Source: Escherichia phage EC.W14-3
DNA: 64,000 nt
Sequence record: PP496998.1
Direction: 5' to 3' (one strand)
Both the position numbers and the translations under genes were made by a program. The notes under the pieces are model-generated. The model was given only the letters and a program-made list of their open reading frames with translations, did no database searches and was not told where the DNA came from. This document shows positions 4,349 to 64,000 of the stretch, one piece after another. Numbering within the stretch: the stretch's first letter is position 1; each line of letters begins with the position of its first letter.

Positions 4349-4531
4349 ATAAATAAGACGAATGAACTATTCTTATTGATTGGTTCGTAACAAGGAGATT
4401 GAAGTGGAAGAGATGCCATCGGATTGGTGTTATCGTCAGAGCGCCATCTGTAATGAACAAGGTCGTCCTGATGAGGCTGAGTTCTATCTAGAGCTAGCCG
4501 AACTGTGGAAAGAACGAGAGGAGAAAGAGTG

Positions 4532-4699: not shown

Positions 4700-4708
4700 G
4701 GAATATCA

Positions 4709-4885
4709 ATGACTGCTTCTGAATTAAAAGAAACCCTATCCACTGAAGAAGGTAAAGCTTTCTTCTTATCTCAAGTACACTCTATGGGTAAAGATGCCCT
4801 TCGCCAAGCAGTCGTTGAGCTTACTGGTGTAGTGATTGACTTGAGTATTGAAAATGAAACACTTGAAGCTAAAGTGAACGGTTAA
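4709..4885 (+). CDS. small hypothetical protein (58 aa)
   Basis: ATG with upstream AAGGAA; below ORF-track cutoff. Confidence 0.3.
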   Translation: MTASELKETLSTEEGKAFFLSQVHSMGKDALRQAVVELTGVVIDLSIENETLEAKVNG

Positions 4886-4892
4886 ATAAGAA

Positions 4893-4914
4893 GCTGCCTT
4901 CGGGCGGCTTTTCT
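4893..4914 (+). terminator. rho-independent terminator-like hairpin
   Basis: GCTGCC-TTCG-GGCGGC followed by TTTT. Confidence 0.45.
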
Positions 4915-5324
4915 TGTCTAAAGGATTTGACATGAATATTGGTTTAGATTATGATGACACTTACACAGCAGATAGACGTCTGTGGAGAGATGTGATAGGA
5001 TTGATGAAAGGGTATGGACATGATGTAAGATTCGTGACTTTCCGTTTCTCAGAGCCTAATGGTTATGATAACGTGGATATCCTCTATGATGCAGAGACCC
5101 TGCAAATCCCTGTCATCTTTTGTAATGGTGTGCAGAAGGATGAGGTGTGTCGACAGTTAGGTTTCTTCGTCGATATCTGGATTGATGACTTCCCTGTTGG
5201 AATCCCCAAAAAGGACCACCTAGATGGTATGCTGAAGGGCGTAAGACTTAATGACCTTAGGGCAGCACCTCCTGTAGAAATAGCCGCTCCTGTGTACTCT
5301 GAAGAGCCTTTGGTGATTCGATGA
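4914..5324 (+). CDS. hypothetical protein with HAD-like DxD motif (possible phosphatase/nucleotidase)
   Basis: N-terminal IGLDYDDT and later WIDD resemble HAD motifs I and III; weak. Confidence 0.3.
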   Translation: MSKGFDMNIGLDYDDTYTADRRLWRDVIGLMKGYGHDVRFVTFRFSEPNGYDNVDILYDAETLQIPVIFCNGVQKDEVCRQLGFFVDIWIDDFPVGIPKKDHLDGMLKGVRLNDLRAAPPVEIAAPVYSEEPLVIR

Positions 5325-5485
5325 AGAAATATAGTGTATGGATTAACGAGGAAGAAGAAGGTTTTGATGAAGCTGGAGGGTGGGTGAATATCCTAAACAC
5401 CGACGACATAGAAGAGGCCGAGAAGTGCGCCCTAAACTATAACTCTGGATATTATGAAAGAAATTGGGAATATGGGGAAGAAGAA

Positions 5486-5706
5486 TGATTTGGGTTCACA
5501 CTTATAGAATTGGAAAGAAAGGGCTTACTACTATTCATACCTCTGAAGACAGTGCTAAAGCATCTCAGGCTGTACTGAAAGGGAAGATCACACCTTATGT
5601 AGTCGCTGAAGAAAAGAAGAGTCCTCCAGTTTTGGAATACTTAGGAACAGGTAAAGCTTATACAGCACTGGATGTTATTAACAACAAACAAGGAGATGTG
5701 GCATAA
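5486..5706 (+). CDS. hypothetical protein
   Basis: ORF 5464..5706, start chosen at ATGA overlap. Confidence 0.3.
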
Positions 5707-5708
5707 AA

Positions 5709-5924
5709 ATGGAATACATTGATAAATACTCAAGTGAAGACTCAACCAACGCTGAAGTTTTGTTCGTACTAAAAACAGACTGCCTCGAACATGGTCAGCT
5801 CATTAACTTTATGGAGTTGGCAAAACTTAAAGAAGAGATTGATCAACTATACAGCGATGAGCAATCCAGATTACTTTCCCTGTCCCTGCTAGGTGACTTA
5901 ACTTGTGATGGGTGTACTATCTAA
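5709..5924 (+). CDS. hypothetical protein
   Basis: ORF track. Confidence 0.35.
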   Translation: MEYIDKYSSEDSTNAEVLFVLKTDCLEHGQLINFMELAKLKEEIDQLYSDEQSRLLSLSLLGDLTCDGCTI

Positions 5925-5933
5925 GAGGTCTTT

Positions 5934-6437
5934 ATGGCTGAAGTTTATTTTGCAGGGGATGGTCACTTAGGCCATCGCAACATCTGTAGTTTTCGTAAGC
6001 AATTTAAAACCATCGAAGAACACGACAAAGTAATCCTAGCTGCATTTGATCATGTAACTAAGCGTGATAAAATCTTCTTTACCGGTGATTGGGTGTTTGA
6101 AAAGTATGCCCTTGATATCATCGCTGAAGTAAGAGGAGAGAAGCATCTAGTCTTAGGAAACCATGACAGGTTAGAACTTCTCCCTGATATGATGAAAGTC
6201 TTCCGTAGAATCTCTGGTGATTATAAATATAAAGAGTTTTGGGTAACTCATATTCCTATTCACACTGATGAGATGAGAGGAAAGTTTAACATTTATGCTC
6301 ATACACACAACCATGTAATTGATGATTGGAGATATTTCTGTACATCAATGGAGCAAATTGACTATAAAGCTGTTTCTCTGCAAGAGATTAGGAAGGTCTT
6401 TGATGAAAGAAGAAAAGAACAAGATCTCATTATTTAA
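5934..6437 (+). CDS. metallophosphoesterase (calcineurin-like phosphoesterase)
   Basis: ordered motifs GDGHLGH, FFTGDW, GNHD, THIPIH, AHTHNH. Confidence 0.6.
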   Translation: MAEVYFAGDGHLGHRNICSFRKQFKTIEEHDKVILAAFDHVTKRDKIFFTGDWVFEKYALDIIAEVRGEKHLVLGNHDRLELLPDMMKVFRRISGDYKYKEFWVTHIPIHTDEMRGKFNIYAHTHNHVIDDWRYFCTSMEQIDYKAVSLQEIRKVFDERRKEQDLII

Positions 6438-6915
6438 AGAACCTGTAGTACATAAAGATTCTATCAGAGATCAATATAATGAGATGTTAAAGAAACAAGC
6501 TGATTCTAATCTTCGTTATCAGAGGATAGTAGAACAATCTAACTTTAAAGGTTTACTTGAATGGTAACTTATATCCTTTACTTTTTAGCTTTCTTAGGAA
6601 TAGTCTTTTTATCTATTCTTATTGAATTTGGTTTAAGTAAGTTAGTTAATTATTTAGGTAATAAGTAATTAATATTCTTTTAAATAGAGAATCAAAGTCC
6701 CTAGGAGTCCCTACAACCTAAATCAAGGATTCCTTAATTCTCTATTTTTATCTCGCAGGTGGCTCCTGCCCTTCGGTACTTGCAAGGGATTCTGTGAATT
6801 GCCCAATATACAAGCCTGCAATAACTTTATCAGCTATACAATATATACATTACTAGTGTGATATATCTACTACCAAAGATACTTATATTATATAGTACTC
6901 TTATCGGTATAAGCG

Positions 6916-6924
6916 TAATGTATA
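6916..6924 (+). promoter_or_regulatory. TAATGTATA motif, candidate phage-sigma-dependent promoter element upstream of the SSB gene
   Basis: exact 9-mer also found upstream of two minus-strand structural genes (17095..17103 and 33925..33933 as reverse complement). Confidence 0.4.
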
Positions 6925-6983
6925 CTATACATAACCGCTCAAAGAGAGCAACAATCTTTCAAATTAAATAAGGAAATTAAAAT

Positions 6984-7730
6984 ATGTCTATGATTCCAAC
7001 TATCGCAACCGCTTCCCGTAAATCCAACTACGATGTAATCCCTGATGGTGAGTACGAAGCACGTATCGTTCGTGTAGTAGGTTTGGGTGTTCACAATCGT
7101 GACCCTTGGATTGACCCGAAGACCAAAGCAGTGACTCCTAAGAATCCGGCTTTCCGTATGGATTTAGCTTTCGAGCTGATTGGTGTTGATGCTACTGGTA
7201 AAGATTCCGATGGTAAGGCATTAGAACCACGTCCAGCTTGCCAGTTCAAGAGCTATGATGTAAACCCACGAGCTAAGAACTCTGGTATTCTTGATCTTTG
7301 CAAGATGATTGACCCAAGTATTCAAGCACTGAAAGGTGATCTATCTTGGTTCAAGGATGTTCTGTTAGGTCAGCCTGTTAACATTCTGGTTAACTCTTAT
7401 ACTAACAAAGCTGGTGAAGTTAAAAACTCCATCAAGACCATTTCTCCAATCCCAACCAAATATCGTGCAGCAGTTGGTGAAGCTCGTAGTCCTCTGGTAT
7501 TCTTCGAACCATATGCTGAAACCGACGAGAACGTAGCATCCTACCAACTGATGTTCCCGTTCCAGCGCAACCTGCTTACTCAAGCTAATGACGCTAAGAA
7601 CATGCCTCTGGCTGGTCGTGAAATTACTCGTGCTTCTGAAACAGAGCAGAAAGAAGCTACTCCTTCAATCCCTACGATTGATAAAGAGCCTGCTTCTACT
7701 TACGAAGACGACAACGATAGCCCATTCTAA
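6984..7730 (+). CDS. single-stranded DNA-binding protein, T7 gp2.5-like (putative)
   Basis: acidic C-terminus ending in Phe (YEDDNDSPF) as in gp2.5-type SSBs; preceded by AT-rich region; followed by terminator. Confidence 0.45.
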   Translation: MSMIPTIATASRKSNYDVIPDGEYEARIVRVVGLGVHNRDPWIDPKTKAVTPKNPAFRMDLAFELIGVDATGKDSDGKALEPRPACQFKSYDVNPRAKNSGILDLCKMIDPSIQALKGDLSWFKDVLLGQPVNILVNSYTNKAGEVKNSIKTISPIPTKYRAAVGEARSPLVFFEPYAETDENVASYQLMFPFQRNLLTQANDAKNMPLAGREITRASETEQKEATPSIPTIDKEPASTYEDDNDSPF

Positions 7731-7751
7731 TAACTCTCCTTGTTATAGCTT

Positions 7752-7776
7752 AGCCACCTCCGGGTGGCTTTTTTCG
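7752..7776 (+). terminator. rho-independent terminator
   Basis: AGCCACC-TCCG-GGTGGCT followed by TTTTTT. Confidence 0.6.
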
Positions 7777-7787
7777 TTGGAGACAAC

Positions 7788-8138
7788 ATGCAAAACACAT
7801 TAAGTGATAACTTAGGGTTTATCGTTTTCTCAGCTCTTGTATTCTTTGGTGGTATGAAGTTTAACGAATATCAAACAGACAGCAGTAATCTGGACAAAGA
7901 GAAGCACCAGCAAGAGTTAGAGATTGAAAGAAGTAGAGCAGCTGATGAAGTTGCTCAGAGAGTTCTTACCGGTTTATCTAACTGGAAGAAGAACACAGAA
8001 ACCGTTTATAAAGAGATGCATTATGAGAAAACTAAACCAGTTTTTTATGATGTCTGCGCTAGTGATGACTATGTCCGCATGTTCAATGATCGACAGCAGC
8101 AGGCAATCAATGCCCTTACCAACAAACCTAAAAGCTGA
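7788..8138 (+). CDS. i-spanin (Rz-like) candidate
   Basis: N-terminal TM helix LGFIVFSALVFFGG then coiled-coil-like periplasmic region; an embedded lipoprotein ORF in the +1 frame. Confidence 0.5.
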   Translation: MQNTLSDNLGFIVFSALVFFGGMKFNEYQTDSSNLDKEKHQQELEIERSRAADEVAQRVLTGLSNWKKNTETVYKEMHYEKTKPVFYDVCASDDYVRMFNDRQQQAINALTNKPKS

Positions 8139-8282
8139 ATGCAGGGTTGACTTACCTTTTTTAGAGAGTGCTCAAGGAAAAGCACTAGCCACTACGTTGG
8201 AGTGGTATCAGGACCAGTACACAGAATGTGCTGCCAATCACAATGGATTGTTAGAAGCTCTGAAAGAGCGTGGAATAGAATA

Positions 8283-8283
<1 letters not shown>
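8023..8283 (+). CDS. o-spanin (Rz1-like lipoprotein) candidate, overlapping the Rz frame
   Basis: ATG inside the Rz gene in another frame; signal peptide ending in lipobox-like MSAC; extends past the Rz stop. Confidence 0.45.
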
Positions 8284-9769
<1,486 letters not shown>

Positions 9770-9779
<10 letters not shown>

Positions 9780-10669
9780 ATGAAGAGGTAAAAGCTTTAA
9801 AGAAAGCTCTTGCAATTAAAATCAAACATTTAAATTTCGTCAGAGATGAGTTGGAGGAGCTATCCAACTTATCAGGATATGAGTTACAGAATGAGCTTGT
9901 AGAGTTTCAAATCAATATTGATGGCGGTAAATACGTAGAAACAACTAGAGCGATTTTACCTAAAGTTACTGGTAACAAAACTTCTCCAGTAGACTACTCA
10001 CATGACCACACGGAGCAATTAGAAATGGAATCTCAAGGCAATCCAGCACTGACCAATATGGTGGGAGATTCCCATTATAAGCCTTTAGTAGTAATTCTTA
10101 ATGGGCCTCCGGGTTGTGGTAAAGATACGATAGCCAATGCTTGGGTCAATGCCCATTCATACCATCACAATTATTCAACCAAATCCTTCAAGGAGCCAAT
10201 GTACAAGGTAGCTGCTGCTGCACTAGGCATACCTCTAGAAAACTTTCTAGCACGCTATGAAGACCGTGAATGGAAAGAAAAACCTAGACCAGAATGGGGA
10301 GGGAAGTCTGTAAGAGATTTGATGATTTCTACAAGTGAAGACTTCTTAAAACCTATGTTTGGCAACAGCCATATGGGGGATCTTGCTGTAAAAAGCATCA
10401 AACAAGAAGGGTTAGGTCAGGATGATATTGTCATGTTTACTGACGGAGGTTTTGATGCAGAGGTACGAGAACTAGAAAAGAATTTCCATGTCCAAGTTGT
10501 ACAAGTTCTTAGAGATGGTTGCTCTTTTGATGGAGACTCTCGCTCATATATTGAAGGCGAACAGAGAAAAACATATCTACTGTTTAATGACTCAACTATT
10601 GAATCAGCAGTATCAGATCTAGATTGGATTATTGCTCAAGCTCAGGATGATATTTATGGAAGAAGTTAA
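9770..10669 (+). CDS. P-loop nucleotide kinase (dNMP-kinase-like)
   Basis: Walker A LNGPPGCGKDT; N-terminal coiled-coil extension of about 100 aa. Confidence 0.5.
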
Positions 10670-11474
10670 GCTCCCTGAAGTTGCTATAGTGGACGCTGAC
10701 GTTCTTCGGTATGAAGTGGGCGCTCTTACTCAGGAGCATCCCTTTCTTGACACAGGACGTGTTCCAGTTGATTACAATTTCATGATTGAACGACTTCAGT
10801 ACAAGATCGATACAATCATAGCTCGCTCGGGTTGTAGTAAGGTTGTATTCTACTTCAGCGAAGGTGGTAACTTTCGTTTCGATGTTGCTAAGCAACAAGA
10901 CTACAAGGCAAATAGACCTCCCGGAGAAAGACCTTTTCACTGGCAAAACGTTGGCGATTACATTAAAGCCAAGTACGAATATGTTGAGGTCTTTGGGAGA
11001 GAAGCTGATGATGCATTAGCTGAAAGGCAACGTAGGGATAAGAATACTATCATCTGTACTAGAGACAAGGATTTGTTGATAACTCCCGGATGGCATTATC
11101 GCTGGGCTTGTGGAGAAAGACAGAAAGAAGTACCTCCTCATTATGTATCTGACTTGGTATCATGGCAAAATTTCTTCTATCAAATGTTGATTGGGGATGG
11201 GACAGATAACATTCCCGGATGTGGTGAACGTAAAGAAGTTATGTGGGGCGGTAAGCTCCAGCTACGACGTCAAGGTGTCGGGAAGAAAGCAGCAGCTAGT
11301 CTGTTGGCTGGTGTTGCAGATAAGTGGACCATGTATCATATAGTACGAATGGAATATTATAAGAAGTTCGATACTGAAGATGAAGAGAAGATGCTCGAGA
11401 ATGCTCGGCTTCTCTTTGTTGGTCAGACTCCGGAAGACCTGTTCGACTGGACATGGTTAGATAAATCTTGGTAA
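10656..11474 (+). CDS. 5'-3' exonuclease / flap endonuclease
   Basis: IGDGTDNIPG helix-3-turn-helix motif and acidic N-terminal block AIVDADVLRYE; start chosen at MEEVK. Confidence 0.65.
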   Translation: MEEVKLPEVAIVDADVLRYEVGALTQEHPFLDTGRVPVDYNFMIERLQYKIDTIIARSGCSKVVFYFSEGGNFRFDVAKQQDYKANRPPGERPFHWQNVGDYIKAKYEYVEVFGREADDALAERQRRDKNTIICTRDKDLLITPGWHYRWACGERQKEVPPHYVSDLVSWQNFFYQMLIGDGTDNIPGCGERKEVMWGGKLQLRRQGVGKKAAASLLAGVADKWTMYHIVRMEYYKKFDTEDEEKMLENARLLFVGQTPEDLFDWTWLDKSW

Positions 11475-11497
11475 TAAGGATATTATAATGGGTAAAT

Positions 11498-11677
11498 TTG
11501 ATTATCGTTCATATGATGAAAACTCCTCCAACCGTGAATCTCGTAAAGACCAAAAGATTAAACATCAACTGTTTGATCAGAGAACTGGTCGTATTCCTCG
11601 TGAGGGTAAGGTGAGCCATCGTGTAAACAAACGAGTTTGGGAAGAAGCTGATTATGGCGAAGTCTGAGAAGACTCGC
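11498..11677 (+). CDS. small hypothetical protein (59 aa)
   Basis: ATG found by eye; below ORF-track cutoff. Confidence 0.25.
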
Positions 11678-12055
11678 TGTAGTGGAATGTGGACTGAAGC
11701 TCGTTACAACTCTTTCATCAAGTCAGGGATTCGTTCTCTGACTAGAAAGTGGAAGCCCATGTTCGATGCACTAGCAGACGCCAAGACAGAGCAGAAGATT
11801 AATCCAAAGACAGGAAGACTGGCAATGCACTTTAAATGTGCCATGTGTGGTTCTGACCACCCTGTAAAGGATATGGCTATTGACCACATAGAGCCTATAG
11901 TTCCCTTAGATCATGAAGCAACTTGGGATGAAATCATCTCTCGTGCTCTGTGTGAGAAAGAAGGTTTTCAGGTTCTATGTAAAGACCCTTGTCATAAGAT
12001 TAAAACAAAAGAAGAGAATGATGCAAGAAAACAATTCAAAAAAGGAAATGAGTGA
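11654..12055 (+). CDS. HNH endonuclease
   Basis: CAMCGSDHPVKDMAIDHIEPIVP...LCKDPCHKIK: zinc-binding Cys pairs flanking the H-N-H core. Confidence 0.65.
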   Translation: MAKSEKTRCSGMWTEARYNSFIKSGIRSLTRKWKPMFDALADAKTEQKINPKTGRLAMHFKCAMCGSDHPVKDMAIDHIEPIVPLDHEATWDEIISRALCEKEGFQVLCKDPCHKIKTKEENDARKQFKKGNE

Positions 12056-12275
12056 TGATCAAAAATCTACGCAACAAGTGCTTCGCTTTCGCTATCGCAA
12101 TTGGAGAGGCGAGGTTGCTGACCGGTCCGTTATTCCACTCCGAACCTCCGTTGCTAGCTCCCGTTTTCATAACGGTGGCAAACCTTGTTGGATTATGACA
12201 GCGATAGATGTAGAGAAAGATGAGATTCGAGAGTTCAAACTCTCTGACATTATTCAGTATTACGATTTAATCTAG
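12048..12275 (+). CDS. hypothetical protein
   Basis: internal ATG of ORF 11913..12275, just after the HNH gene. Confidence 0.3.
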   Translation: MSDDQKSTQQVLRFRYRNWRGEVADRSVIPLRTSVASSRFHNGGKPCWIMTAIDVEKDEIREFKLSDIIQYYDLI

Positions 12276-12598
12276 GAACTGACATTATCACACAAGCAGA
12301 TAAAAATAAACTCTTCGACTTAATCCACGACCTATTAGAAGCTCAGAGCTTTATTGACAATGCCGATACTTGGGAGATGGAAGCAGCTGGAAAAGCTTTT
12401 GATGAAAGTGAAGAGAAACTTACTAATTTTATAAACACAATCTAGGAGGGTATATGAATGAAGAAGTTGTTATCCTTGGAAGTAAATCAGATTGGTTCTA
12501 TGGAGGCATCTCAGGATGCTTTGAAGATGAACATCCAGACTTCTGAAGAAAATTGGGATGTATGACGAATTTGATGGTTTTTAAAACTTAGAAACAAA

Positions 12599-17094: not shown

Positions 17095-17103
17095 TATACA
17101 TTA
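17095..17103 (-). promoter_or_regulatory. TAATGTATA motif (reverse complement on plus strand), candidate phage-sigma promoter upstream of the 1473-aa gene
   Basis: exact 9-mer about 40 nt upstream of the start codon. Confidence 0.4.
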
Positions 17104-33924: not shown

Positions 33925-33933
33925 TATACATTA
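33925..33933 (-). promoter_or_regulatory. TAATGTATA motif, candidate phage-sigma promoter upstream of 33139..33891
   Basis: exact 9-mer (as reverse complement) about 35 nt upstream of the ATG, just after a terminator hairpin. Confidence 0.4.
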
Positions 33934-54622: not shown

Positions 54623-54912
54623 TATCGTGAAGGACTCTTACGAGAGTCCTTTGAGATAGGACTTCAGATCTCCTATCAAACTAACATTCATGTAACTAGC
54701 CCATAAGGGCGTTACCCTTTAATAACCCAGCCCACTAAGGGGGCGGGAGTTTAGTGCTGGATGAGCATAACGCTTATTCCTACAAAGGCAACCGATTGTT
54801 AGATCTTACATGCAATATTAATTAATAGGATAAGGGAGGATTCGTCCCCTCCCCCTATTTTATTGAATCTTTATCTAAGCAAGTCTTATATAAACATTTA
54901 ATCGGAGGGTAT

Positions 54913-56760: not shown

Positions 56761-57045
56761 AGTGTTCCTCAAACATCCGTCGGATAGATATTTTAAGAGC
56801 AGGTTATCCACAGATATTGGGTAATATCTTTTTGGATTTAAAGCTTGGCTCTTTTCGGAGAGTCCTTTTTTAAATTCAATGAGAGGAAATATGTCTAAAT
56901 TAGATTTAAAACTGCTAGCAGCAGCGGTAGTGATTTGTGCACTAGCACTGGTAACGCAGAGAACATCTGGATTTATTCAGTGTTTCTTTTCTGGGCAATC
57001 CACTTATCAGTGGGTTATTGACGAGTGTAAACAACAGGAGTAAGT

Positions 57046-57419: not shown

Positions 57420-58619
57420 ATGTTTCCAGTAACATTAGAAGATACTGAAGGTAATGTTTTAACGGTCAACCCTCCTTGTTATGGGTTCCTTCAGCTTCGC
57501 AACTATAACGGTGGCGTTGATGAAGACGGTGACGAAGATGATGACTACTTCGACCCTAACATGTATGAGGCAACTCATGGATGGAATATGCACGTTCGAG
57601 TATGGCATGAAGAAGCCAACGTTCGTAGCGCTGACGGAGAAGAGTTCTTGTTAAGCCGAGAGATGGGTATGTGTAAAATCAAGCATATCTGGAACTCTGG
57701 AACTCATATGAAGATGTTAGGTTTTAGACGTTGGCGTGATGAAAAGCATGTAGCTGAAGCTTTAAGTTGGTGTTCGTATGAAGATGAAGACACGCCTCCT
57801 AAGAATAACATTGAACGTTGGAACGACAAAAACCCTGAACATCGAACCACACCTCGTGCTGTACTGGAAGCTATGGAAGCATTTGTGGACAAAGACCGTC
57901 CCTCCTGTTTACGCTGGCACGATAAAGGTTTTATGGGGGTAGCAACTGAGAACATCCCTGCTGATCGTTGTCTGTTCTATTTGATGTTAGACCGAACCTT
58001 CTATTGTGAAGATGAAGAGAGTCAAGTTGAAACCTTCCTCCATAAATGGTTGGTTGAAGGCTGGACAATCCTTCAGGCTTATGTTTACTCACGAATGGTT
58101 AGCACTTACACTAACCTCTTGGGCGAAAAGAAAGCAACTCTGGTTGGTAACGATTGGGATGCTTGTATCTTCCCAGCGTCGCTGTTTACAGTCGGCATGG
58201 CTGATAAATACGCTGAAGCATTTCAAGTTCCTTGGCGTCAACAGTCATACAGAGATGGATGCGGTCACTTCCGTGATGAAGACTTTAAGTGGATTCATTA
58301 TGAGAATAACGAAACAGCAGAATTGCGAGTTAATAACTCGATGTTCTTGCCGGTGATGCATCCTGATTTAGTAAAAGATGAGTCAGAAATACTCAAAGGT
58401 GACAACCTTCTGGTTACCTTTGCTCGTCGAGTATCTAAAGATGAAAGAACAGCTGACAGATTAGTCTACGCTTATCGCGCTGAGACTAAAGATATGTTCA
58501 ATATTTATAATATTGTTCAGCGATTCAGTAGCGGAACTCTGGACCAAAGTTCGGAGTATTCAGTGATTCCGTCCTCTGAGTGGGATGGTATTATGAGCGG
58601 ATTATTTTTAGGAAAATAA
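57420..58619 (+). CDS. hypothetical protein (399 aa), first gene of the amidoligase-containing cluster
   Basis: ORF track; co-oriented and tightly packed with downstream enzymes; no motif recognised. Confidence 0.4.
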   Translation: MFPVTLEDTEGNVLTVNPPCYGFLQLRNYNGGVDEDGDEDDDYFDPNMYEATHGWNMHVRVWHEEANVRSADGEEFLLSREMGMCKIKHIWNSGTHMKMLGFRRWRDEKHVAEALSWCSYEDEDTPPKNNIERWNDKNPEHRTTPRAVLEAMEAFVDKDRPSCLRWHDKGFMGVATENIPADRCLFYLMLDRTFYCEDEESQVETFLHKWLVEGWTILQAYVYSRMVSTYTNLLGEKKATLVGNDWDACIFPASLFTVGMADKYAEAFQVPWRQQSYRDGCGHFRDEDFKWIHYENNETAELRVNNSMFLPVMHPDLVKDESEILKGDNLLVTFARRVSKDERTADRLVYAYRAETKDMFNIYNIVQRFSSGTLDQSSEYSVIPSSEWDGIMSGLFLGK

Positions 58620-58629
58620 AAGGTTAGTT

Positions 58630-59601
58630 ATGTCAATCTCCACAACGATCGTACCTCTTAATCTTCAACAGGATTTAGGGGAACAAAAGTTCTTAGGTCG
58701 TGGGTGCTTCGGTATCCACAACTACATGCAAGGCCAGTGTGTAAATGACATTAATGGTGAAGTTATCTCGGAAGAAGGGCGTTATCGTCGCTTCAACCGT
58801 GATATCAACTTGCAACTGGAGATGTTGAATTACTGGACTCACTCTTTTCACGGTCATGTTGCATCTGATATTGAAAAGAACTTGGTTGAAACAGCAGACA
58901 TTATGAACTCCATGTCTTGCTATCGTGACGTATTTACGATCACTTCAGCAAATAGTGTTGCTGTCAACCTTCGTGAGCATCCAGCAGATCAGATCTTCAC
59001 AGGACTTATGCTCTTTCGTAGTATTCTGGAAGGGCAATATCGTGGAATGGATTTCCTAGCAGAAGGAATTGAAGACAGGGAAGAGTGGCTGAAGCGTAAA
59101 CGCATCGGCATCGCTCTAGTGTTAGCTGGGTTGGGTCGTGACTTCTTCGGTGGATGGTCTCAACGAGGAAGAGCTAATGGGAGTAGCGAAAGCACCTCTA
59201 TTGTTATTAACAACAATATGTCAGCAGCAGCATTCCTTCCTTTGGTTGTAGACTCTGATGAATACACGAAGCAAGTATGGGTTCAAAACCCCTTCGGTGT
59301 TGGCGACAACGAGAATGGTTATGTTCGTAACCATAACCAAGATGCCTTACGAAGATTTGCTCGTGCTAAAGATCAAGACCCGGACGAGTATGAAACAATG
59401 TCAGAGTGGTTAAGACTCTGGTCCAACTGTTATGGTCACAAACGTGAATCAATAGACGACAAGTTGGGAAACATTACAGTACAAAACTTTACATCCCGAC
59501 TGATTCAAAGAACTGGAGCAGATTCCGGTCTTACTCTTGAAGAAGTTGGTAACACAATCTCATCTCTCTTTTCTGAACTAGTGGAGTATTACAATGACTA
59601 A
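58630..59601 (+). CDS. hypothetical protein (323 aa)
   Basis: ORF track; overlaps next gene start. Confidence 0.4.
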   Translation: MSISTTIVPLNLQQDLGEQKFLGRGCFGIHNYMQGQCVNDINGEVISEEGRYRRFNRDINLQLEMLNYWTHSFHGHVASDIEKNLVETADIMNSMSCYRDVFTITSANSVAVNLREHPADQIFTGLMLFRSILEGQYRGMDFLAEGIEDREEWLKRKRIGIALVLAGLGRDFFGGWSQRGRANGSSESTSIVINNNMSAAAFLPLVVDSDEYTKQVWVQNPFGVGDNENGYVRNHNQDALRRFARAKDQDPDEYETMSEWLRLWSNCYGHKRESIDDKLGNITVQNFTSRLIQRTGADSGLTLEEVGNTISSLFSELVEYYND

Positions 59602-60400
59602 GCGCAAATTCCTCATCGGCTCTGACCCTGAAATGTTCGTTCGTACTAGCAACGGTATCATCACCTCTGTAGCTGGTCTATTAGGCTGTTCTAAGGACGA
59701 TAAGATCACTCTGGCTAAGGATGTTCGTCTTCAAGAGGACAATGTATTGGCTGAGTTTGATATCGACCCACAGAGCGGTTTTGAAGCGTTTAACGATAAC
59801 ATGCAACGTGGTATTGATCTCACCAATAATGTCCTGAACAAACTGGACATGGAAACAGCTCCGGGTGTTAGCTCTCACATCTTCACTGAAGAAGAGATGA
59901 AGACCTTTAATGAATCAGCGTTCATCTTCGGGTGCACTCCTGATTTCAACGCCTTCACTGGTCAGAAAAACCCATCCCCGACTTCTCAGAATAAGGGACT
60001 TCGTACTGCCGGTGGTCACGTACATCTTGGCGTAGTTGGTGCTTTGGATATCACTCTGCAAACTCAGATGATGCTGGGTGTGTTGTGTGACTACTTCCTG
60101 TCTCTTCCAGCAGTAATTATGGACAAAGATACTCGCCGTAAAGAACTCTACGGTAAAGCATCTGCAATCCGTTATAAAGACTACGGTATCGAATACCGTT
60201 CGCTGTCTAACTTCTGGATTAGTGATCGTGAAAACCGTAAGTTTGTTTACGATCAGGTTGACAAGGTTGTTCAGCAGTGTGATATGTCCACTCTGATGGC
60301 ATTGCACTCTCGCCTTCCGATTGAGAAGCTTCATGAAATCATTAACGGGAACAACGTTAAAGAAGCTGACCAGCAGATCAAACTCCTTCAGGTAGCATAA
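59594..60400 (+). CDS. amidoligase-like protein (GCS2/YbdK-type carboxylate-amine ligase fold), putative
   Basis: N-terminal FLIGSDPEMF (G-x-D-x-E variant of the GxExE strand) and GGHVHLG His motif; paralogous pattern to 61024..62127. Confidence 0.4.
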   Translation: MTKRKFLIGSDPEMFVRTSNGIITSVAGLLGCSKDDKITLAKDVRLQEDNVLAEFDIDPQSGFEAFNDNMQRGIDLTNNVLNKLDMETAPGVSSHIFTEEEMKTFNESAFIFGCTPDFNAFTGQKNPSPTSQNKGLRTAGGHVHLGVVGALDITLQTQMMLGVLCDYFLSLPAVIMDKDTRRKELYGKASAIRYKDYGIEYRSLSNFWISDRENRKFVYDQVDKVVQQCDMSTLMALHSRLPIEKLHEIINGNNVKEADQQIKLLQVA

Positions 60401-60409
60401 GAGGTTATC

Positions 60410-61027
60410 GTGAGCTTAGTAGCTGATTTTTCTCATTACTATAATGGTACATGGATTGCTAAACGAGCAGGCAATGTCAACCTTCCGTGTTTTGTGATTG
60501 GTGTTGAGCAGAGCGGTAACTTCCGCAGCGATGACTTCTCGCATGAAGCAGAACAGGCTCTGTATTTTGTTGTAGAGCAGTGGTACAAGAACGAGCATGG
60601 GAATCTCCGAAACACTACGATGAATATTCCAGTGTTCGACCCAACCTTGATTCTTGAATCACCTGATGTTGGTTATCTGTTCCATAACGGTAACACTGTA
60701 AGCTGGACTCATATCAACCCTGTTCGTCAGAGAGCGAAGGGTTTGATGGGTAACAAGATTCGAAACGCTCCGGGAATTGGTCGTTCGATCTCTGGTGAAA
60801 TGGTTTACAGTCTGTTCAATCCTGAATTTGATGGATTGGTTACTCGTTATATTTACATCAATCCTACAGATGGTAAAGTGCATTATAAAGGTGCACTGGT
60901 AGGTCAGGTAGATCTGGAAGCGCCTCGTGACTCTTACGGTCAACAACCGATGCGACTTCTAGAGCATTTTCATCACATCTCTGAAAACCTTAGCAATTAT
61001 AATATTACGTTGGTGGATTCGTTATGA
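60410..61027 (+). CDS. hypothetical protein (205 aa) between the two amidoligase-like genes
   Basis: GTG start with GAGG SD; no motif recognised. Confidence 0.35.
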   Translation: MSLVADFSHYYNGTWIAKRAGNVNLPCFVIGVEQSGNFRSDDFSHEAEQALYFVVEQWYKNEHGNLRNTTMNIPVFDPTLILESPDVGYLFHNGNTVSWTHINPVRQRAKGLMGNKIRNAPGIGRSISGEMVYSLFNPEFDGLVTRYIYINPTDGKVHYKGALVGQVDLEAPRDSYGQQPMRLLEHFHHISENLSNYNITLVDSL

Positions 61028-62127
61028 CAACTGTAGCGCAAACTTTTGGATATCGAGAAGGTCGTTTAACTGAGGCGCATAGTTCAATTGCACTTCAGTG
61101 CGGTGTCGGTATTGAACTTGAACTCGAAGGTTCTGAACATATCGAAGCAGATATGTGGGATTGCACAGAGGATGGTTCCCTGCGTAACGGTTGTGAAATG
61201 GTATGTTCACGACCTTACAACGGACAGGAGTTGTTAGACGCTATCAACAACCTGAGTGAAGCAGTAGCTGAATCGCACGCCGAGGGGACTTGGCGTTGCT
61301 CTACTCACGTTCATATGGATATGAGGGATGCTGATAGTAATATCCTCAAGAAAACCATTCTCGCTTGGACCTTCTATGAAAAGATGTTGTTCAAGTGTTC
61401 AGGCTATCATCGTTACCGTAGCAACTTCTGCCCTGCTTTCGCAGTAGTACAAGCACAGGTAATGAATGCCTCTGACGCATTTAACTACGACGATGAAGAG
61501 TTCTTCAACCGTCTGGTTCGTTCATGGGATAAATATACATCTCTGAACCTTCTGCCACTTTCCCAATACGGTTCGATTGAGTTCCGTATCAGTGAGCCTA
61601 AGTGGAAACGTGGTCAACTTCTCAATCTGGTTAACCGCTTCTTGATGTTGAAGAAGCTGGCTTTAGATAACGCAGAGATGAGCAATGATCAGTTTATCGA
61701 GCATTTAAATACTGTACGATTTGCCCCAATGCTTCCTTACCTTCCTCTGGATTACAATCTGGACGAATCGGATTTGCATTCAGGGTATTGTATGGCCCGT
61801 GATGTTTTGTATTGCCGTTCTCATGGAGTAGAGCAGTCTGGTCGTATTCGTTTACGTCGAACCAACTCCAACGGAGAAGTTCTTGTTGACTTACGTCTTA
61901 TCTCAAACTTCTACGGATTCCTTGGATATGTACGAGGGAACGCTAACAACTTGTACCAAGAGATTCTGGTTATGCTTCGTACAACTGACCTATCTCAAGT
62001 AAGACACGCTCCAGAACAACGTATTCGTGCTATTTTTGACTTACTACGTGAGTCTGGTCATAGTGATAGCAATATCACAGGGTACATTCCAGACCATCTG
62101 GAAAATCAGTTAGAGCAAGCGCTGTAA
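61024..62127 (+). CDS. amidoligase (GCS2/YbdK-type carboxylate-amine ligase, glutamine-synthetase-like fold), putative
   Basis: N-terminal VGIELELEG, DGSLRNGCEMV and STHVHMD motifs. Confidence 0.5.
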   Translation: MTTVAQTFGYREGRLTEAHSSIALQCGVGIELELEGSEHIEADMWDCTEDGSLRNGCEMVCSRPYNGQELLDAINNLSEAVAESHAEGTWRCSTHVHMDMRDADSNILKKTILAWTFYEKMLFKCSGYHRYRSNFCPAFAVVQAQVMNASDAFNYDDEEFFNRLVRSWDKYTSLNLLPLSQYGSIEFRISEPKWKRGQLLNLVNRFLMLKKLALDNAEMSNDQFIEHLNTVRFAPMLPYLPLDYNLDESDLHSGYCMARDVLYCRSHGVEQSGRIRLRRTNSNGEVLVDLRLISNFYGFLGYVRGNANNLYQEILVMLRTTDLSQVRHAPEQRIRAIFDLLRESGHSDSNITGYIPDHLENQLEQAL

Positions 62128-62206
62128 TCAATGGGTGCCTCTGATAAAGGGGCACAATTTAAAGGTTAATTAGATGAAAGGGTTTACCCTTCAGGTGGAT
62201 TAGAAA

Positions 62207-64000
62207 ATTTGTGGCATCGTATTAGCTGGCGGTAATCTGTCAAGCACTGATTTAGACGTATTTAACCAACTCTTTTATGCTGGAGTATTCCGAGGACAAC
62301 ATTCCTCCGGTATCTTTGGTCAGCGTAAAAGTACTAAGGAAGTCTTCACTTATAAAGAAGCTCTTCCTTCTTTCGCATTCATCCTACAAGATGAGTACAA
62401 GAAGCACACCACTGGTGAAACAGCTTACACTGTAGCACCTTCATGGATTGTTGGTCACAGCCGTCATGCAACGAAAGGTGCAGTTAACGCCAAGAACGCC
62501 CATCCTTTCCAACATGGTAACATCACTCTGGTTCATAACGGAACCTTGATGGACCAAGATCTGTTACCTGACAGCAAAAACTTCGAGGTAGACAGTGAGA
62601 ACATCTGCCACTCTATTAACACTATTGGTGCAGCAGAAACTATTCAAAAGCTGGATGGTGCTTTCACCTTAATCTGGCATGATGCTTCTGATAACCGTCT
62701 TCATATTATCCGTAACGAAGAGCGTCCATTCCACCTCGCACGTTGTAACAGAGATTGGTTTGGTGCTTCTGAAGAAGACATGTTGATGTGGATTCTGAAG
62801 CGTTCTAGATCTCACAAGAACCGTATTGATGAGCATTTTGAATGTAAAGTTGGTACAGAGTATATCTTTGACATGTCAAACAACAGCATGACTCTGGTTG
62901 AAGAGGTCGCCCACGAGCTTCCGGTTTTTACGGTAATCAATCGTTGGGGCAATTACTACTCGAACAACTACAGCCAAAGCAATTATCAAAGTTCCTCAAA
63001 AAGCAGTACAAGCAATCCTTACGACACGAAGCCGGGAGTGACAGCGGCAGACGTTCGTCGAAGAAACGCAGTGGTAAGTCAAAACAAAATCGCAAGCGAT
63101 CGAAACATTGATATTCGCCGCGATATGACTGTGGAAATCACTCCGCATGAGTTTGTTCCTTATGCAACTGCTGGTGCTGTTCCTTCTCGTGGTAAGATGA
63201 TTGGCTATATCTACGATGAGAAGTCTCAAGAGTACATCGAAGGTGATGTTCATAACGTAGACATTAAGGCTTATCAGGATGCACTGAAAGACCCTAAAAT
63301 TGTTTACCGTGGGACAGTATCCTGCATCTCCGAAGTCAATGCTATGGTCCGTTTAGTGATCACAGCAGGTCGTTTTGTTGACCCATCTCTGGAGAAAAAG
63401 GAGCCTGAGTCAACTACTGCTGACTTCGATGATGATATCCCTTTTGATATGAATGATAGTTTCGTCAACAAGAATGGCGTTACTATCACTCGTAAATTCT
63501 GGGAAGCACACTCTCATGGTGATTGTGGTGGTTGTGACAAGCACATTGATTGGAAGGATGCACCTAAAGCAGTCTTCGCATATCAGTGCTATTGGCATCC
63601 TGAATGTCTGGAAGGTTTGACTAAACCTAAAGAGGAAGAGGAGGAGGAAACTCCTATTGGTGTTTGTGAAATCTGCGGTGAAGTTAAAACAGAAAATGAG
63701 TTCGATGATGAACTTAGTCGTCTTCGTGGTGAAGATATCTGTAAAACCTGCGCTGTAGAAGTAAAGAAGAAAGTATCTAATGCTACAATCAAAGATGGTT
63801 ATGTCTGGATTAAAGCAACAGATACAACAAACGCCCGTCGTCCTGAGTTTGCTTTACGTGTAACTGAAGAAATGATCGGTCGTATGACTGTATTACCTTC
63901 CTCAGCGAAACAGACAGGCATCACTCTGGAGGATGTTGTTGATGCTTATGTTGAGAAACGTAGCAACAGTATTTTTGCAATCTCAACTAAGCCAAAAAAG
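62207..64000 (+). CDS. class-II (Ntn) glutamine amidotransferase domain protein with Cys-rich C-terminal region; partial, runs off window end
   Basis: open frame from 62204 to the window end; CGIVLAGG at the N-terminus, GHSRHATKGAVNAKNAHPF, LVHNGTL, later four CxxC pairs; putative ATT start with AGGTGG SD 8 nt upstream. Confidence 0.5.
   Translation, partial: MCGIVLAGGNLSSTDLDVFNQLFYAGVFRGQHSSGIFGQRKSTKEVFTYKEALPSFAFILQDEYKKHTTGETAYTVAPSWIVGHSRHATKGAVNAKNAHPFQHGNITLVHNGTLMDQDLLPDSKNFEVDSENICHSINTIGAAETIQKLDGAFTLIWHDASDNRLHIIRNEERPFHLARCNRDWFGASEEDMLMWILKRSRSHKNRIDEHFECKVGTEYIFDMSNNSMTLVEEVAHELPVFTVINRWGNYYSNNYSQSNYQSSSKSSTSNPYDTKPGVTAADVRRRNAVVSQNKIASDRNIDIRRDMTVEITPHEFVPYATAGAVPSRGKMIGYIYDEKSQEYIEGDVHNVDIKAYQDALKDPKIVYRGTVSCISEVNAMVRLVITAGRFVDPSLEKKEPESTTADFDDDIPFDMNDSFVNKNGVTITRKFWEAHSHGDCGGCDKHIDWKDAPKAVFAYQCYWHPECLEGLTKPKEEEEEETPIGVCEICGEVKTENEFDDELSRLRGEDICKTCAVEVKKKVSNATIKDGYVWIKATDTTNARRPEFALRVTEEMIGRMTVLPSSAKQTGITLEDVVDAYVEKRSNSIFAISTKPKK

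What the first reader, a model, noticed from the sequence alone, without database searches (positions are those of the whole stretch)
57420..64000. Phage-borne cluster of two amidoligase-like enzymes plus a class-II glutamine amidotransferase
Six co-oriented, tightly packed genes. ORF 61024..62127 opens with VGIELELEG and carries STHVHMD; ORF 59594..60400 has IGSDPEMF and GGHVHLG. Both fit the N-terminal metal-binding strand and His motifs of GCS2/YbdK-type carboxylate-amine ligases. The next ORF (62207 onward) has Ntn glutamine amidotransferase motifs (CGIV..., HSRHATKG..NAHPF, LVHNGTL) followed by zinc-ribbon-like CxxC pairs. Three flanking proteins (399, 323, 205 aa) have no recognisable motif. 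Amidoligase plus GAT-II neighbourhoods are predicted in the comparative-genomics literature to build amide-linked metabolites or to modify macromolecules. In a phage the plausible targets are DNA bases (thymidine-type hypermodification, possibly with the P-loop kinase at 9770..10669) or a virion/host protein. Substrate and product cannot be read from the sequence.
Basis: partly seen in the sequence, partly recalled or inferred. Interest (0 to 1): 0.8.

Follow-up and report, generated by a model that had tools for sequence, protein, structure and literature searches.

The report
Known phiEco32-type phage amide-ligase cassette

Summary
The window is Escherichia phage EC.W8-1 (Kuravirus), 100% identical to PQ030848.1. 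The region corresponds to phiEco32 genes gp88 to gp83 at 97.5% nucleotide identity.

The motifs and enzyme calls hold:
- 59594-60400 matches Pfam PF14395, "Phage phiEco32-like COOH.NH2 ligase-type 2".
- 61024-62127 matches PF12224, Amidoligase_2.

The window end cuts the cassette. In the same genome it continues with a small DUF7195 protein, a RimK-like ATP-grasp ligase and a gamma-glutamyl cyclotransferase, then the primase/helicase. Seven genes keep their order in Kuravirus, LUZ24-like Pseudomonas phages and uncultured phage contigs. A crAss-like Cellulophaga phage has the five enzymes, and a Vibrio phage has most of them in shuffled order. The 399-aa and 323-aa proteins are lineage-specific.

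Iyer et al. 2009 and Hardies et al. 2013 described the cassette; I know both only through papers that cite them. I found no experiment on it. The published guess is cell-wall modification.

The proposed DNA hypermodification link with the P-loop kinase is not supported.

Possibly new: the amidotransferase has an OB-like domain and zinc ribbons where a synthase domain would sit, and a conserved ATT start codon.

Already known; low to moderate interest.

The parts
57420..58619 (+). 399-aa protein (phiEco32 gp88 equivalent). Function unknown; specific to the Kuravirus lineage; membership of the cassette is uncertain.
   Evidence: phrog_13063 at 1e-247, a profile exactly 399 positions long. No Pfam, NCBIfam or PDB match. 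No similarity to the positionally equivalent LUZ24 gp14 and no homologue in the distant contig L008.
58630..59601 (+). 323-aa protein (gp87 equivalent). Function unknown; lineage-specific; membership of the cassette is uncertain.
   Evidence: phrog_13102 at 3e-204. No Pfam or NCBIfam match, and PDB matches only at chance level. No similarity to LUZ24 gp15 or to L008 ORFs. ORFs at the same position in other lineages fall into unrelated PHROGs.
59594..60400 (+). COOH-NH2 ligase type 2 (gp86 equivalent); predicted ATP-dependent carboxylate-amine ligase.
   Evidence: PF14395 at 2.2e-8, above the gathering score; phrog_3815 at 3e-118. Invariant in four distant phages: G9 D11 P12 E13, Q47 D49 E54, R137 T138 G140 H142 H144, D177 D179 R182, R193 K195 E200 R202. 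tblastn finds the family in 306 phage records.
60410..61027 (+). 205-aa conserved accessory protein (gp85 equivalent), always encoded between the two ligases; probably non-catalytic.
61024..62127 (+). Amidoligase_2 (gp84 equivalent); predicted ATP-dependent carboxylate-amine ligase.
   Evidence: PF12224 at 3.3e-8, above the gathering score; phrog_7469 at 4e-157. Invariant in 44 homologues down to 24% identity: G29 E31 E33 E35, D50 G51 S52 L53 R54 G56 E58, R91 C92 S93 T94 H95 H97, E119 R130, K170 Y171 N175, G183 E186 R188.
62128..62206 (+). Intergenic spacer with an 8-bp hairpin (62135-62155) and a Shine-Dalgarno AGGTGGA (62193-62199), 7 nt before the ATT start.
   Evidence: Sequence. The fold has a z-score of -1.47, not significant. 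The spacer is identical in phiEco32 and nearly so in SU7.
62207..62935 (+). Class-II (Ntn) glutamine amidotransferase / gamma-glutamyl amidohydrolase domain, residues 1-243 of the gp83 equivalent. ATT start, Cys at residue 2.
63128..63379 (+). OB-like five-stranded beta-barrel, residues 308-391 of the amidotransferase protein.
63458..63793 (+). Two zinc-ribbon-like modules, residues 418-529 of the amidotransferase protein.
   Evidence: C440 C443 C467 are invariant; C487 C490 C512 C515 are nearly invariant in 64 homologues. The modules are confidently modelled. A third module lies in the 78 residues past the window end (YCSEC...CNSPKC).
63800..63985 (+). Second small beta-domain, residues 532-593 of the amidotransferase protein. 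The ORF runs off the window end at 64000.
   Evidence: AF2 secondary structure with pLDDT about 93. The ORF continues in frame at positions 1-237 of the circular record PQ030848.1.

Best explanation
The region is the 5' two-thirds of the phiEco32/LUZ24-type cassette for gamma-glutamyl and unusual peptide bonds, carried by virulent phages. It is expressed early to mid infection and sits directly upstream of the replication genes.

Shown here: what the proteins are, that their catalytic residues are conserved, and that the gene order is conserved.

Inferred chemistry:
- Three ATP-dependent carboxylate-amine ligases each form one amide bond through an acyl-phosphate: the type-2 COOH-NH2 ligase, Amidoligase_2, and a RimK/MptN-like ATP-grasp enzyme encoded just past the window end.
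- Two enzymes that recognise a free glutamyl head group edit or remove gamma-glutamyl links.
- The first editor is the Ntn Cys amidotransferase. It keeps the residues that hold the alpha-amino and alpha-carboxylate groups of glutamine or a gamma-glutamyl group. It either hydrolyses a gamma-glutamyl amide, as EgtC does, or hands ammonia from glutamine to a ligase-activated carboxylate.
- The second editor is the AIG2/GGACT-type cyclotransferase, which would release 5-oxoproline and the free amine.
- The net result would be a short amide-linked, glutamate-containing adduct that is written and then trimmed.

The amidotransferase has no synthase domain. Instead it carries an OB-like barrel and zinc ribbons. 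Two small non-catalytic proteins (the 205-aa protein and DUF7195) always accompany the enzymes. I therefore lean towards a macromolecular or carrier-bound substrate over a free metabolite. The substrate cannot be read from the sequence.

My rough split: protein 0.3; soluble amine, polyamine or thiol metabolite 0.25; cell-wall precursor 0.2; nucleic acid 0.15; other 0.1.
For: Identity:
- 100% match to phage EC.W8-1 and 97.5% to phiEco32 gp88-gp83.
- Pfam and PHROG matches for both ligases and the amidotransferase.
- The rest of the cassette in the same genome: DUF7195 at 4.7e-17, ATP-grasp (MptN 1e-7, RimK family 2e-6, phrog_2599 2e-185), GGACT at 2.8e-17.

Conserved order, from COOH-NH2 ligase through the ~200-aa protein, Amidoligase_2, amidotransferase, DUF7195, ATP-grasp and GGACT to the primase/helicase:
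- LUZ24 and UFV-P2 (PMC3890496).
- Four uncultured phage contigs.
- Seven proteins are homologous in L008.
- The five enzymes lie next to the primase in the crAss-like Cellulophaga phage phi14:2.

Catalytic residues are invariant across distant homologues.

Amidotransferase fold and architecture:
- NCBIfam also gives a weak EgtC match (2e-4).

Expression: SU10 proteomics detected the amidotransferase, the ATP-grasp enzyme, the cyclotransferase and a 23-kDa protein, listed as early gene products (PMC4281155).

The literature describes the same operon (PMC4819975; PMC5498523; PMC10580990).

The subfamily looks restricted to phages. A scan of one genome for each of 100,044 bacterial and archaeal species found five loci, all on short contigs that look like phage contamination.
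Against: - No enzyme of the cassette has been assayed, and I found no knock-out or metabolite data.
- The placement of the two ligases in the glutamine-synthetase/GCS2 superfamily rests on Pfam and Iyer et al. 2009.
- Whether the amidotransferase acts as a hydrolase or as an ammonia donor cannot be decided from sequence.
- The Cellulophaga cassette shows neither DUF7195 nor a 200-aa protein among its annotated genes, so the accessory proteins are not universal.
Confidence: 0.7

Rival explanations
1. Cell-wall remodelling, the published guess. The ligases build unusual peptide or amide links on cytoplasmic peptidoglycan precursors (UDP-MurNAc-peptide or lipid II). The amidotransferase amidates a stem-peptide carboxylate, functionally like MurT/GatD or AsnB-type mDAP amidation. 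The result would block superinfecting phages or prepare the wall for lysis.
For: - This is how later papers report Iyer et al. 2009 and Hardies et al. 2013 (PMC10580990; PMC5498523; PMC11945000; PMC11318856).
- The stem peptide contains gamma-linked D-Glu and free carboxylates, which are suitable chemistry for three ligases plus gamma-glutamyl-specific enzymes (established knowledge).
- OB folds can bind glycans.
Against: - It is hypothesis only; I found no experiment.
- None of the proteins matches Mur ligases or any cell-wall family.
- The cassette sits in the replication/early module, not with the lysis genes.
- Zinc ribbons plus an S1/OB-like barrel on the amidotransferase are unusual for a small-precursor enzyme.
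- The benefit is unclear for a strictly lytic phage.
Confidence: 0.2
2. Protein modification. The RimK-like ATP-grasp enzyme and the two ligases add glutamate or a short peptide to a host or phage protein, for example a ribosomal protein, RNA polymerase or a replication protein. The amidotransferase and the cyclotransferase act as erasers.
For: - The ATP-grasp enzyme is closest to RimK/MptN-type alpha-L-glutamate ligases, and the PHROG names it a ribosomal protein S6 modifier.
- Non-catalytic partner domains are typical of macromolecule targeting: the SH3/Tudor-like barrel in the 205-aa protein, and the OB-like barrel and zinc ribbons in the amidotransferase.
- The sigma-70 inhibitor gp79 is encoded inside the extended cassette in phiEco32 (PMC8948821).
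- The Aravind group proposes that linked ligases of this kind modify proteins in phage-host conflict (PMC4431377).
Against: - No target is identifiable.
- DUF7195 is not a Pup-like tag: its C-terminus is not conserved between Kuravirus and LUZ24.
- ATP-grasp matches are far below the family cut-offs.
- The model of the 205-aa protein has low confidence.
Confidence: 0.3
3. Free-metabolite pathway. The cassette makes or consumes a soluble gamma-glutamyl amide, such as a gamma-glutamyl polyamine or a glutathione-like thiol. Gamma-glutamylation would serve as a temporary handle, as in ergothioneine (EgtA/EgtC), butirosin (BtrJ/BtrG) or Puu/Pau polyamine catabolism.
For: - All three precedents pair a ligase of the GS/GCS2 or ATP-grasp type with a GAT-like hydrolase or a gamma-glutamyl cyclotransferase (established knowledge of those pathways).
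- Amidoligase plus gamma-glutamyl cyclotransferase pairs are also annotated in Clostridium prophages (PMC11318856), which suggests a minimal writer/eraser pair.
Against: - Auxiliary metabolic genes usually have close host homologues. This subfamily was not found in representative bacterial genomes.
- The OB-like barrel, zinc ribbons and accessory proteins are not expected for small-molecule enzymes.
- I found no metabolomic evidence.
Confidence: 0.25
4. Nucleic-acid modification. The cassette decorates phage DNA, or an RNA or tRNA, with an amide-linked group. The amidotransferase is brought to the polymer by its OB-like barrel and zinc ribbons.
For: - OB/S1-like barrel plus conserved zinc ribbons on the amidotransferase.
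- The cassette abuts the primase/helicase in Kuravirus, LUZ24-like and uncultured phages, and the primase in the crAss-like phage.
- The window still carries 8 EcoRI, 32 EcoRV, 7 EcoKI and 104 EcoP1I sites, so site loss alone does not explain that resistance.
Against: - No hydroxymethylase, aGPT-Pplase or DNA-glycosylase-type transferase was found.
- The P-loop protein is of the dNMP-kinase family, and the genome record annotates a ThyX thymidylate synthase.
- DNA of LUZ24-like phage U17, which carries the same module, was sensitive to 11 of 16 restriction enzymes and was the least resistant of four phages tested (PMC11945000).
- No known DNA modification pathway uses GS-like or ATP-grasp ligases (my knowledge).
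- The BASEL authors themselves point to the dCTP deaminase and nucleotidyltransferase instead.
Confidence: 0.13

Closest known systems
phiEco32 gp86-gp77 / LUZ24 gp16-gp22 cassette (Iyer, Abhiman, Burroughs and Aravind 2009, Mol Biosyst 5:1636; Hardies et al. [quoted passage not shown]
   Same: It is the same locus: 97.5% nucleotide identity to phiEco32, the same families, and the same order and neighbours. PF14395 is named after it.
   Different: Nothing substantive. This isolate's GenBank record leaves the amidotransferase unannotated, because the gene crosses the record ends and starts with ATT.
EgtC (ergothioneine pathway Ntn amidohydrolase) and the glutaminase domains of GlmS, PurF and AsnB
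   Different: Only 16-22% identity. There is no fused synthase domain as in GlmS, PurF and AsnB, and the protein is not stand-alone like EgtC. Instead it carries about 430 residues of OB-like barrel, three zinc ribbons and a second beta-domain.
RimK / MptN / CofF alpha-L-glutamate ligases (ATP-grasp)
   Same: They are the best family matches of the downstream ATP-grasp protein. The Mg-binding E-x-N motif is present (LEVN, read from the sequence).
   Different: Scores are far below the family cut-offs (31 bits against 350). The Kuravirus protein has an acidic linker and an extra 80-aa C-terminal domain (phrog_20552). This gene lies outside the window.
Writer/eraser or protect/deprotect pairs that use gamma-glutamyl groups: BtrJ/BtrG (butirosin), PuuA/PuuD and PauA/PauD (polyamines), PafA/Dop (pupylation)
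   Same: Each combines an ATP-dependent carboxylate-amine ligase with a gamma-glutamyl-specific hydrolase or cyclotransferase (my knowledge of those pathways).
   Different: No sequence-level membership was shown. No carrier protein (ACP) is present. The small DUF7195 protein lacks a conserved C-terminal Gln or Glu. Three ligases are present rather than one.
Thymidine hypermodification clusters (5-hmdU DNA kinase, aGPT-Pplase; phages ViI, M6, SP10, phiW-14)
   Same: Both are phage-encoded multi-enzyme clusters near replication genes.
   Different: None of the defining enzymes was detected, and the record annotates a ThyX rather than a hydroxymethylase.

Membership tests
phiEco32/LUZ24-type gamma-glutamyl / peptide-bond cassette | COOH-NH2 ligase type 2 (PF14395) | tested here: met
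   E 2.2e-8, 34.1 bits against a cut-off of 25; phrog_3815 at 3e-118.
phiEco32/LUZ24-type gamma-glutamyl / peptide-bond cassette | Amidoligase_2 (PF12224) | tested here: met
   E 3.3e-8, 34.2 bits against a cut-off of 22; phrog_7469 at 4e-157.
phiEco32/LUZ24-type gamma-glutamyl / peptide-bond cassette | Class-II amidotransferase-like Ntn protein encoded after the amidoligase | tested here: met
   Same position in LUZ24, UFV-P2, L008, L009, L012 and L013.
phiEco32/LUZ24-type gamma-glutamyl / peptide-bond cassette | RimK-like ATP-grasp ligase and AIG2/GGACT cyclotransferase in the same operon | tested here: met
   Both are present in the same genome just past the window end (PQ030848.1 positions 681-1883 and 2585-3004). 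GGACT at 2.8e-17; ATP-grasp phrog_2599 at 2e-185.
phiEco32/LUZ24-type gamma-glutamyl / peptide-bond cassette | Conserved gene order, located upstream of the primase/helicase | tested here: met
   97.5% nucleotide identity to phiEco32 itself.
Glutamine synthetase / GCS2 (YbdK)-like carboxylate-amine ligase superfamily | Detectable sequence relationship to a characterised or solved member (YbdK, GS, PafA) | tested here: not met
   Searching the single proteins (phmmer) and profiles built from their alignments (hmmsearch) against all PDB sequences gave no relevant hit. hhalign between the two phage families aligns RCSTHVH with RTAGGHVH, but not significantly.
Glutamine synthetase / GCS2 (YbdK)-like carboxylate-amine ligase superfamily | Acidic residues on the first strand, an H-x-H motif and a late E-x-R motif, all conserved | tested here: met
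   Amidoligase_2: E31 E33 E35, H95 H97, E186 R188 are invariant in 44 sequences. COOH-NH2 ligase: D11 E13, H142 H144, E200 R202 are invariant in 4 distant sequences. That these are the metal and ATP ligands is inference.
Glutamine synthetase / GCS2 (YbdK)-like carboxylate-amine ligase superfamily | GS-like fold and ATP-dependent ligase activity | not tested
Activity cannot be tested with these tools.
Class-II (Ntn) glutamine amidotransferase | Cys as the first residue after the initiator | tested here: met
   ATT TGT here, in phiEco32 and in SU7; ATG TGT in LUZ24; TTG TGT in a Vibrio phage.
Class-II (Ntn) glutamine amidotransferase | Ntn four-layer fold with an Asn-Gly oxyanion pair and Arg/Asp binding of the glutamyl head group | tested here: met
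Class-II (Ntn) glutamine amidotransferase | Fused acceptor (synthase) domain that receives the ammonia | tested here: not met
Thymidine hypermodification pathway (5-hmdU based) | 5-hmdU DNA kinase, aGPT-Pplase and a dUMP hydroxymethylase | tested here: not met
   The P-loop protein at 9776-10669 matches phrog_139, dNMP kinase, at 4.6e-55. No aGPT-Pplase hit appeared in the cluster or in ten other + strand ORFs. A ThyX is annotated. The check is not exhaustive: small ORFs and record positions 1-12408 were only partly scanned.
Pup-like peptide tagging (PafA/Dop) | Small tag protein with a conserved C-terminal Gln or Glu | tested here: not met
   DUF7195 ends in ...KSGS in Kuravirus and ...DYFE in LUZ24. 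Only internal motifs are shared.

The most novel reading that the evidence does not exclude
The cassette acts on a nucleic acid (phage DNA, or an RNA such as tRNA) rather than on the cell wall. The amidotransferase would be delivered to the polymer by its conserved OB/S1-like barrel and zinc ribbons. This would be a new amide-forming class of nucleic-acid modification, and it could account for the unexplained restriction resistance of Gordonclarkvirinae.
Probability: 0.12. Interest if true: 0.85.

Novelty: already known. Interest (0 to 1): 0.3.

Why it matters
The cassette is widespread. tblastn finds the type-2 ligase in 306 phage records infecting Escherichia, Pseudomonas, Vibrio, Aeromonas, Proteus, Cronobacter, Cellulophaga and other hosts. 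Many of these phages are therapy candidates. In the representative bacterial genomes scanned, the cassette appears restricted to phages.

Finding its substrate would assign a function to seven conserved genes. It would also either confirm the much-repeated 'cell-wall modification' annotation or replace it.

This window adds no new system. It offers a tractable E. coli example and two details that may help design experiments: the nucleic-acid-binding-like tail of the amidotransferase and its ATT start codon.

Tried and rejected
- **Pup-like tag:** rejected. The C-terminus of DUF7195 is not conserved.
- **The 399-aa and 323-aa proteins as conserved cassette members:** rejected at the available sensitivity (BLASTP; phmmer; different PHROGs).
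- **The 205-aa protein fused into the longer Cellulophaga amidoligase:** no support.
- **P-loop protein as a 5-hmdU DNA kinase:** it matches the dNMP-kinase PHROG.
- **Other DNA-modification enzymes in the window:** none found.
- **Restriction resistance explained by loss of sites:** rejected for EcoRI, EcoRV, EcoKI and EcoP1I. Sites are present, although several palindromes, GATC and CCWGG are depleted.
- **Internal promoter for the phage sigma factor (TAATGTATA) or a terminator inside the cluster:** none on the + strand in 57-64 kb. The intergenic hairpin is not significant.
- **Solved relatives of the ligases, or of the 399-aa, 323-aa and 205-aa proteins:** none.
- **Structure of the 205-aa protein:** the model is poor (pLDDT 58), so its fold hits are only suggestive.
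- **Bacterial chromosomal homologues that might give functional context:** only contaminant-like contigs were found. The scan is pattern-based, so divergent relatives would be missed.
- **Papers not held in the library:** Iyer 2009, Savalia 2008 and Hardies 2013.
- **Papers not read because the cap was reached:** PMC8989533 and PMC4635203. PMC11706807, on viruses of Poseidoniales archaea, was also left unread.
- **Tool limitation:** several fetched loci never appeared in the Python sandbox, so cross-locus comparisons were done with the built-in tools.

Full report
**What is there**

The window is Escherichia phage EC.W8-1 (PQ030848.1; Kuravirus, Gordonclarkvirinae). The region 57420-64000 matches it at 100% and matches phiEco32, SU10 and about 65 other Kuravirus-type genomes at 90% identity or more over at least 80% of its length. 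Window coordinates equal record positions 12409-76408. The window end is therefore the end of a circular record that was cut inside a gene.

They correspond to phiEco32 gp88, gp87, gp86, gp85, gp84 and gp83. All quoted motifs are present.

**Family assignment**

| ORF | Match | Source |
|---|---|---|
| 59594-60400 | PF14395 "Phage phiEco32-like COOH.NH2 ligase-type 2", 2.2e-8 | |
| 61024-62127 | PF12224 Amidoligase_2, 3.3e-8 | |
| 62207 onward | GATase_6, 9e-15 | |

All three pass the curated cut-offs, and PHROG matches reach 1e-77 to 1e-247. The 399, 323 and 205 aa proteins have no Pfam, NCBIfam or PDB relatives.

- The amidotransferase gene starts at ATT (62207), behind a good Shine-Dalgarno sequence and directly after an in-frame TAG.
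- The window end cuts it at 598 of 676 aa.

**The unit is larger than the finding, and partly different from it**

In the same genome the operon continues with:
- a 77-aa DUF7195 protein (4.7e-17);
- a 74-aa protein;
- a 400-aa ATP-grasp ligase (best matches MptN and RimK-type alpha-L-glutamate ligases; phrog_2599 at 2e-185);
- several small proteins, one of which is the homologue of phiEco32 gp79, a known inhibitor of sigma-70 transcription (PMC8948821);
- a GGACT/AIG2-type gamma-glutamyl cyclotransferase (2.8e-17);
- then the primase/helicase.

The order COOH-NH2 ligase, ~165-205-aa protein, Amidoligase_2, amidotransferase, DUF7195, ATP-grasp, cyclotransferase, primase/helicase recurs in:
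- Pseudomonas phage LUZ24;
- UFV-P2 (PMC3890496);
- uncultured phage contigs (with partial versions; the ~400-500-aa gene after DUF7195 has no Pfam hit there and is called ATP-grasp by position, confirmed by homology only in L008).

A Vibrio phage has most of the enzymes in a shuffled order. The crAss-like Cellulophaga phage phi14:2 has the five enzymes next to its primase.

Against one distant contig, seven cassette proteins find homologues while gp88 and gp87 find none. ORFs at the same position in other lineages belong to unrelated PHROGs. Four of the six genes in the finding are therefore core members. The two upstream genes are lineage-specific neighbours of unknown standing.

**It is already known**

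Papers citing Iyer et al. 2009 and Hardies et al. 2013 describe exactly this operon:
[quoted passage not shown] - a proposed role in modifying the cell wall to prevent superinfection (PMC10580990; PMC11945000; PMC11318856).

The two primary papers are not in the library, so I know them only through these citations. I found no experiment on any of the enzymes. The only direct data are SU10 proteomics, which detected the amidotransferase, the ATP-grasp enzyme, the cyclotransferase and a 23-kDa protein (PMC4281155).

**How it probably works**

*Shown here*
- Catalytic-looking residues are invariant over large evolutionary distances. In Amidoligase_2 these are E31/E33/E35, the DGSLRxGxE block, RCSTHxH and ExR. 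In the type-2 ligase they are DPE, QxD...E, RTxGxHxH, DxD..R and R.K....E.R.
- It has Cys at residue 2. R86, T89, N111-G112 and D129 are invariant in 64 homologues. These align with the GlmS motifs that bind glutamine.

*Inferred*
- Three ATP-dependent ligases make three amide bonds.
- The Ntn enzyme and the cyclotransferase both recognise a free glutamyl head group. They act as editors or removers, or the Ntn enzyme supplies ammonia.

Class-II amidotransferases that pass ammonia are normally fused to their synthase domain (established knowledge of GlmS, PurF, AsnB and GltB). This protein carries something else, modelled at pLDDT 87 overall:
- a disordered linker;
- a five-stranded barrel in the order beta1-beta2-beta3-helix-beta4-beta5;
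- two zinc ribbons, with a third past the window end;
- a second small beta-domain.

This architecture favours a tethered hydrolase, or an enzyme docked to a polymer or a complex. Together with the ever-present 205-aa protein and DUF7195, it tilts me towards a macromolecular or carrier-bound substrate. That is a lean, not a result.

**The DNA-hypermodification idea**

*Against*
- The P-loop protein at 9776-10669 belongs to the dNMP-kinase PHROG (4.6e-55).
- The genome record annotates a ThyX thymidylate synthase and a dCTP deaminase.
- No aGPT-Pplase or similar domain was found.
- DNA of LUZ24-like phage U17, with the same module, was sensitive to 11 of 16 restriction enzymes (PMC11945000).

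*For keeping the idea alive in a broader form*
- The BASEL study reports Gordonclarkvirinae as remarkably resistant to restriction-modification systems, with no known modification pathway (PMC11990801).
- The window retains EcoRI, EcoRV, EcoKI and EcoP1I sites.
- The cassette sits next to replication genes in unrelated phage lineages.
- The amidotransferase tail resembles nucleic-acid-binding modules.

I put this reading at about 0.12-0.15.

**Distribution**

The type-2 ligase occurs in 306 phage records. A pattern-based scan of one genome per bacterial or archaeal species found only five loci, all on short contigs that look like phage contamination. This subfamily therefore appears restricted to phages, within the limits of that method.

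**Verdict**

The system is already described, though only computationally, and the specific link to thymidine hypermodification is not supported.

The possibly new details are modest:
- the OB-like barrel and zinc ribbons of the amidotransferase;
- the ATT start, conserved across two genera and misannotated or unannotated in public records;
- the finding that gp88 and gp87 are not part of the conserved core.

Interest is 0.3. The open question of the substrate is real and testable in E. coli, but this window does not change what is known.

Noticed in passing
window 62193-62212: The amidotransferase gene starts with ATT, after an in-frame TAG and the Shine-Dalgarno sequence AGGTGGA. The same ATT TGT is present in phiEco32 (Kuravirus) and SU7 (Suseptimavirus). 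RefSeq annotates the phiEco32 gene from this ATT. The SU7 record starts the CDS at an internal ATG, which drops the catalytic Cys. The EC.W8-1 record does not annotate the gene at all. From my own knowledge, AUU starts are rare in E. coli (infC, pcnB) and sensitive to IF3, so expression may be deliberately low or regulated.
   Followed up: partly
window 64000 / PQ030848.1 positions 1-237: The circular GenBank record is opened inside the amidotransferase gene. The last 78 codons, including a third zinc ribbon, are annotated there as a separate 70-aa 'hypothetical protein' with a GTG start.
   Followed up: yes
whole window: Short-palindrome and methylation-site depletion:
- CCWGG occurs only 3 times.
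- GATC occurs 133 times against 302 expected.
- PstI 0 against 15.6 expected; SacI 0 against 13.1.
- 14 six-base palindromes are absent.
- All 6-bp palindromes: 673 observed against 830 expected from a Markov model.

EcoRI (8), EcoRV (32), EcoKI (7) and EcoP1I (104) sites remain.
   Followed up: partly
L001 14462-14710 (phiEco32 gp79); PQ030848.1 1896-2138, outside the window: The known sigma-70 inhibitor and activator of the phage sigma factor, gp79, is encoded inside the extended cassette, between the ATP-grasp ligase and the cyclotransferase. LUZ24 shows no gene between its ATP-grasp and cyclotransferase genes, so gp79 looks like an insertion rather than a cassette member.
   Followed up: partly
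L011 4528-4998 (SU7); UFV-P2 ORF24; L008 3508-4113 and 9547-9972; L007 6146-6562 and 11470-11967: HNH homing endonuclease genes are inserted at different points inside the cassette in several phages. The cassette seems to be a hot spot for homing elements, and it tolerates being split.
   Followed up: no
window 8283-8723, 8746-9390, 9387-9779: Three neighbours upstream of the dNMP kinase:
- a Macro domain protein (3.3e-11), a possible ADP-ribose binder or hydrolase;
- a sigma-factor-like protein, presumably the gp36 homologue (a weak Sigma70_r2 match);
- a small protein with a borderline match to the SLOG/YAcAr family (5e-6, just under the cut-off), annotated 'chromosome segregation protein' in the record.
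   Followed up: no
window 6844-6852 (-), 6916-6924 (+), 17095-17103 (-), 33925-33933 (-): There are four exact matches to the published phiEco32 gp36-dependent promoter consensus TAATGTATA, and none inside the cassette. The total count with one mismatch allowed (20) equals the chance expectation (20.6), so only the exact matches placed upstream of genes are likely to be meaningful.
   Followed up: no
window 54834-54863 and 56847-56874 (+): Two good intrinsic-terminator-like hairpins with T-tracts lie upstream of the cluster. The second is about 570 nt before gp88. Terminator-like sites in 54-64 kb number 16, against 6.6 expected.
   Followed up: no
L014 (Peptococcaceae MAG contig, 8.2 kb); L015-L018 (Herbiconiux daphne scaffolds of about 1 kb): Genome assemblies labelled as bacteria contain short contigs encoding this phage amidoligase, one of them 98% identical to this phage. 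They look like phage contamination or mis-binning rather than bacterial genes.
   Followed up: no
L008 14041-17227; L009 14681-19847: In distant relatives the cassette lies next to NAD-salvage and RNA-repair genes: NAPRTase, a ribose-phosphate pyrophosphokinase-like protein, an NMN transporter, NUDIX, RtcB and an Rnl2-type RNA ligase. These genes are absent from Kuravirus.
   Followed up: no
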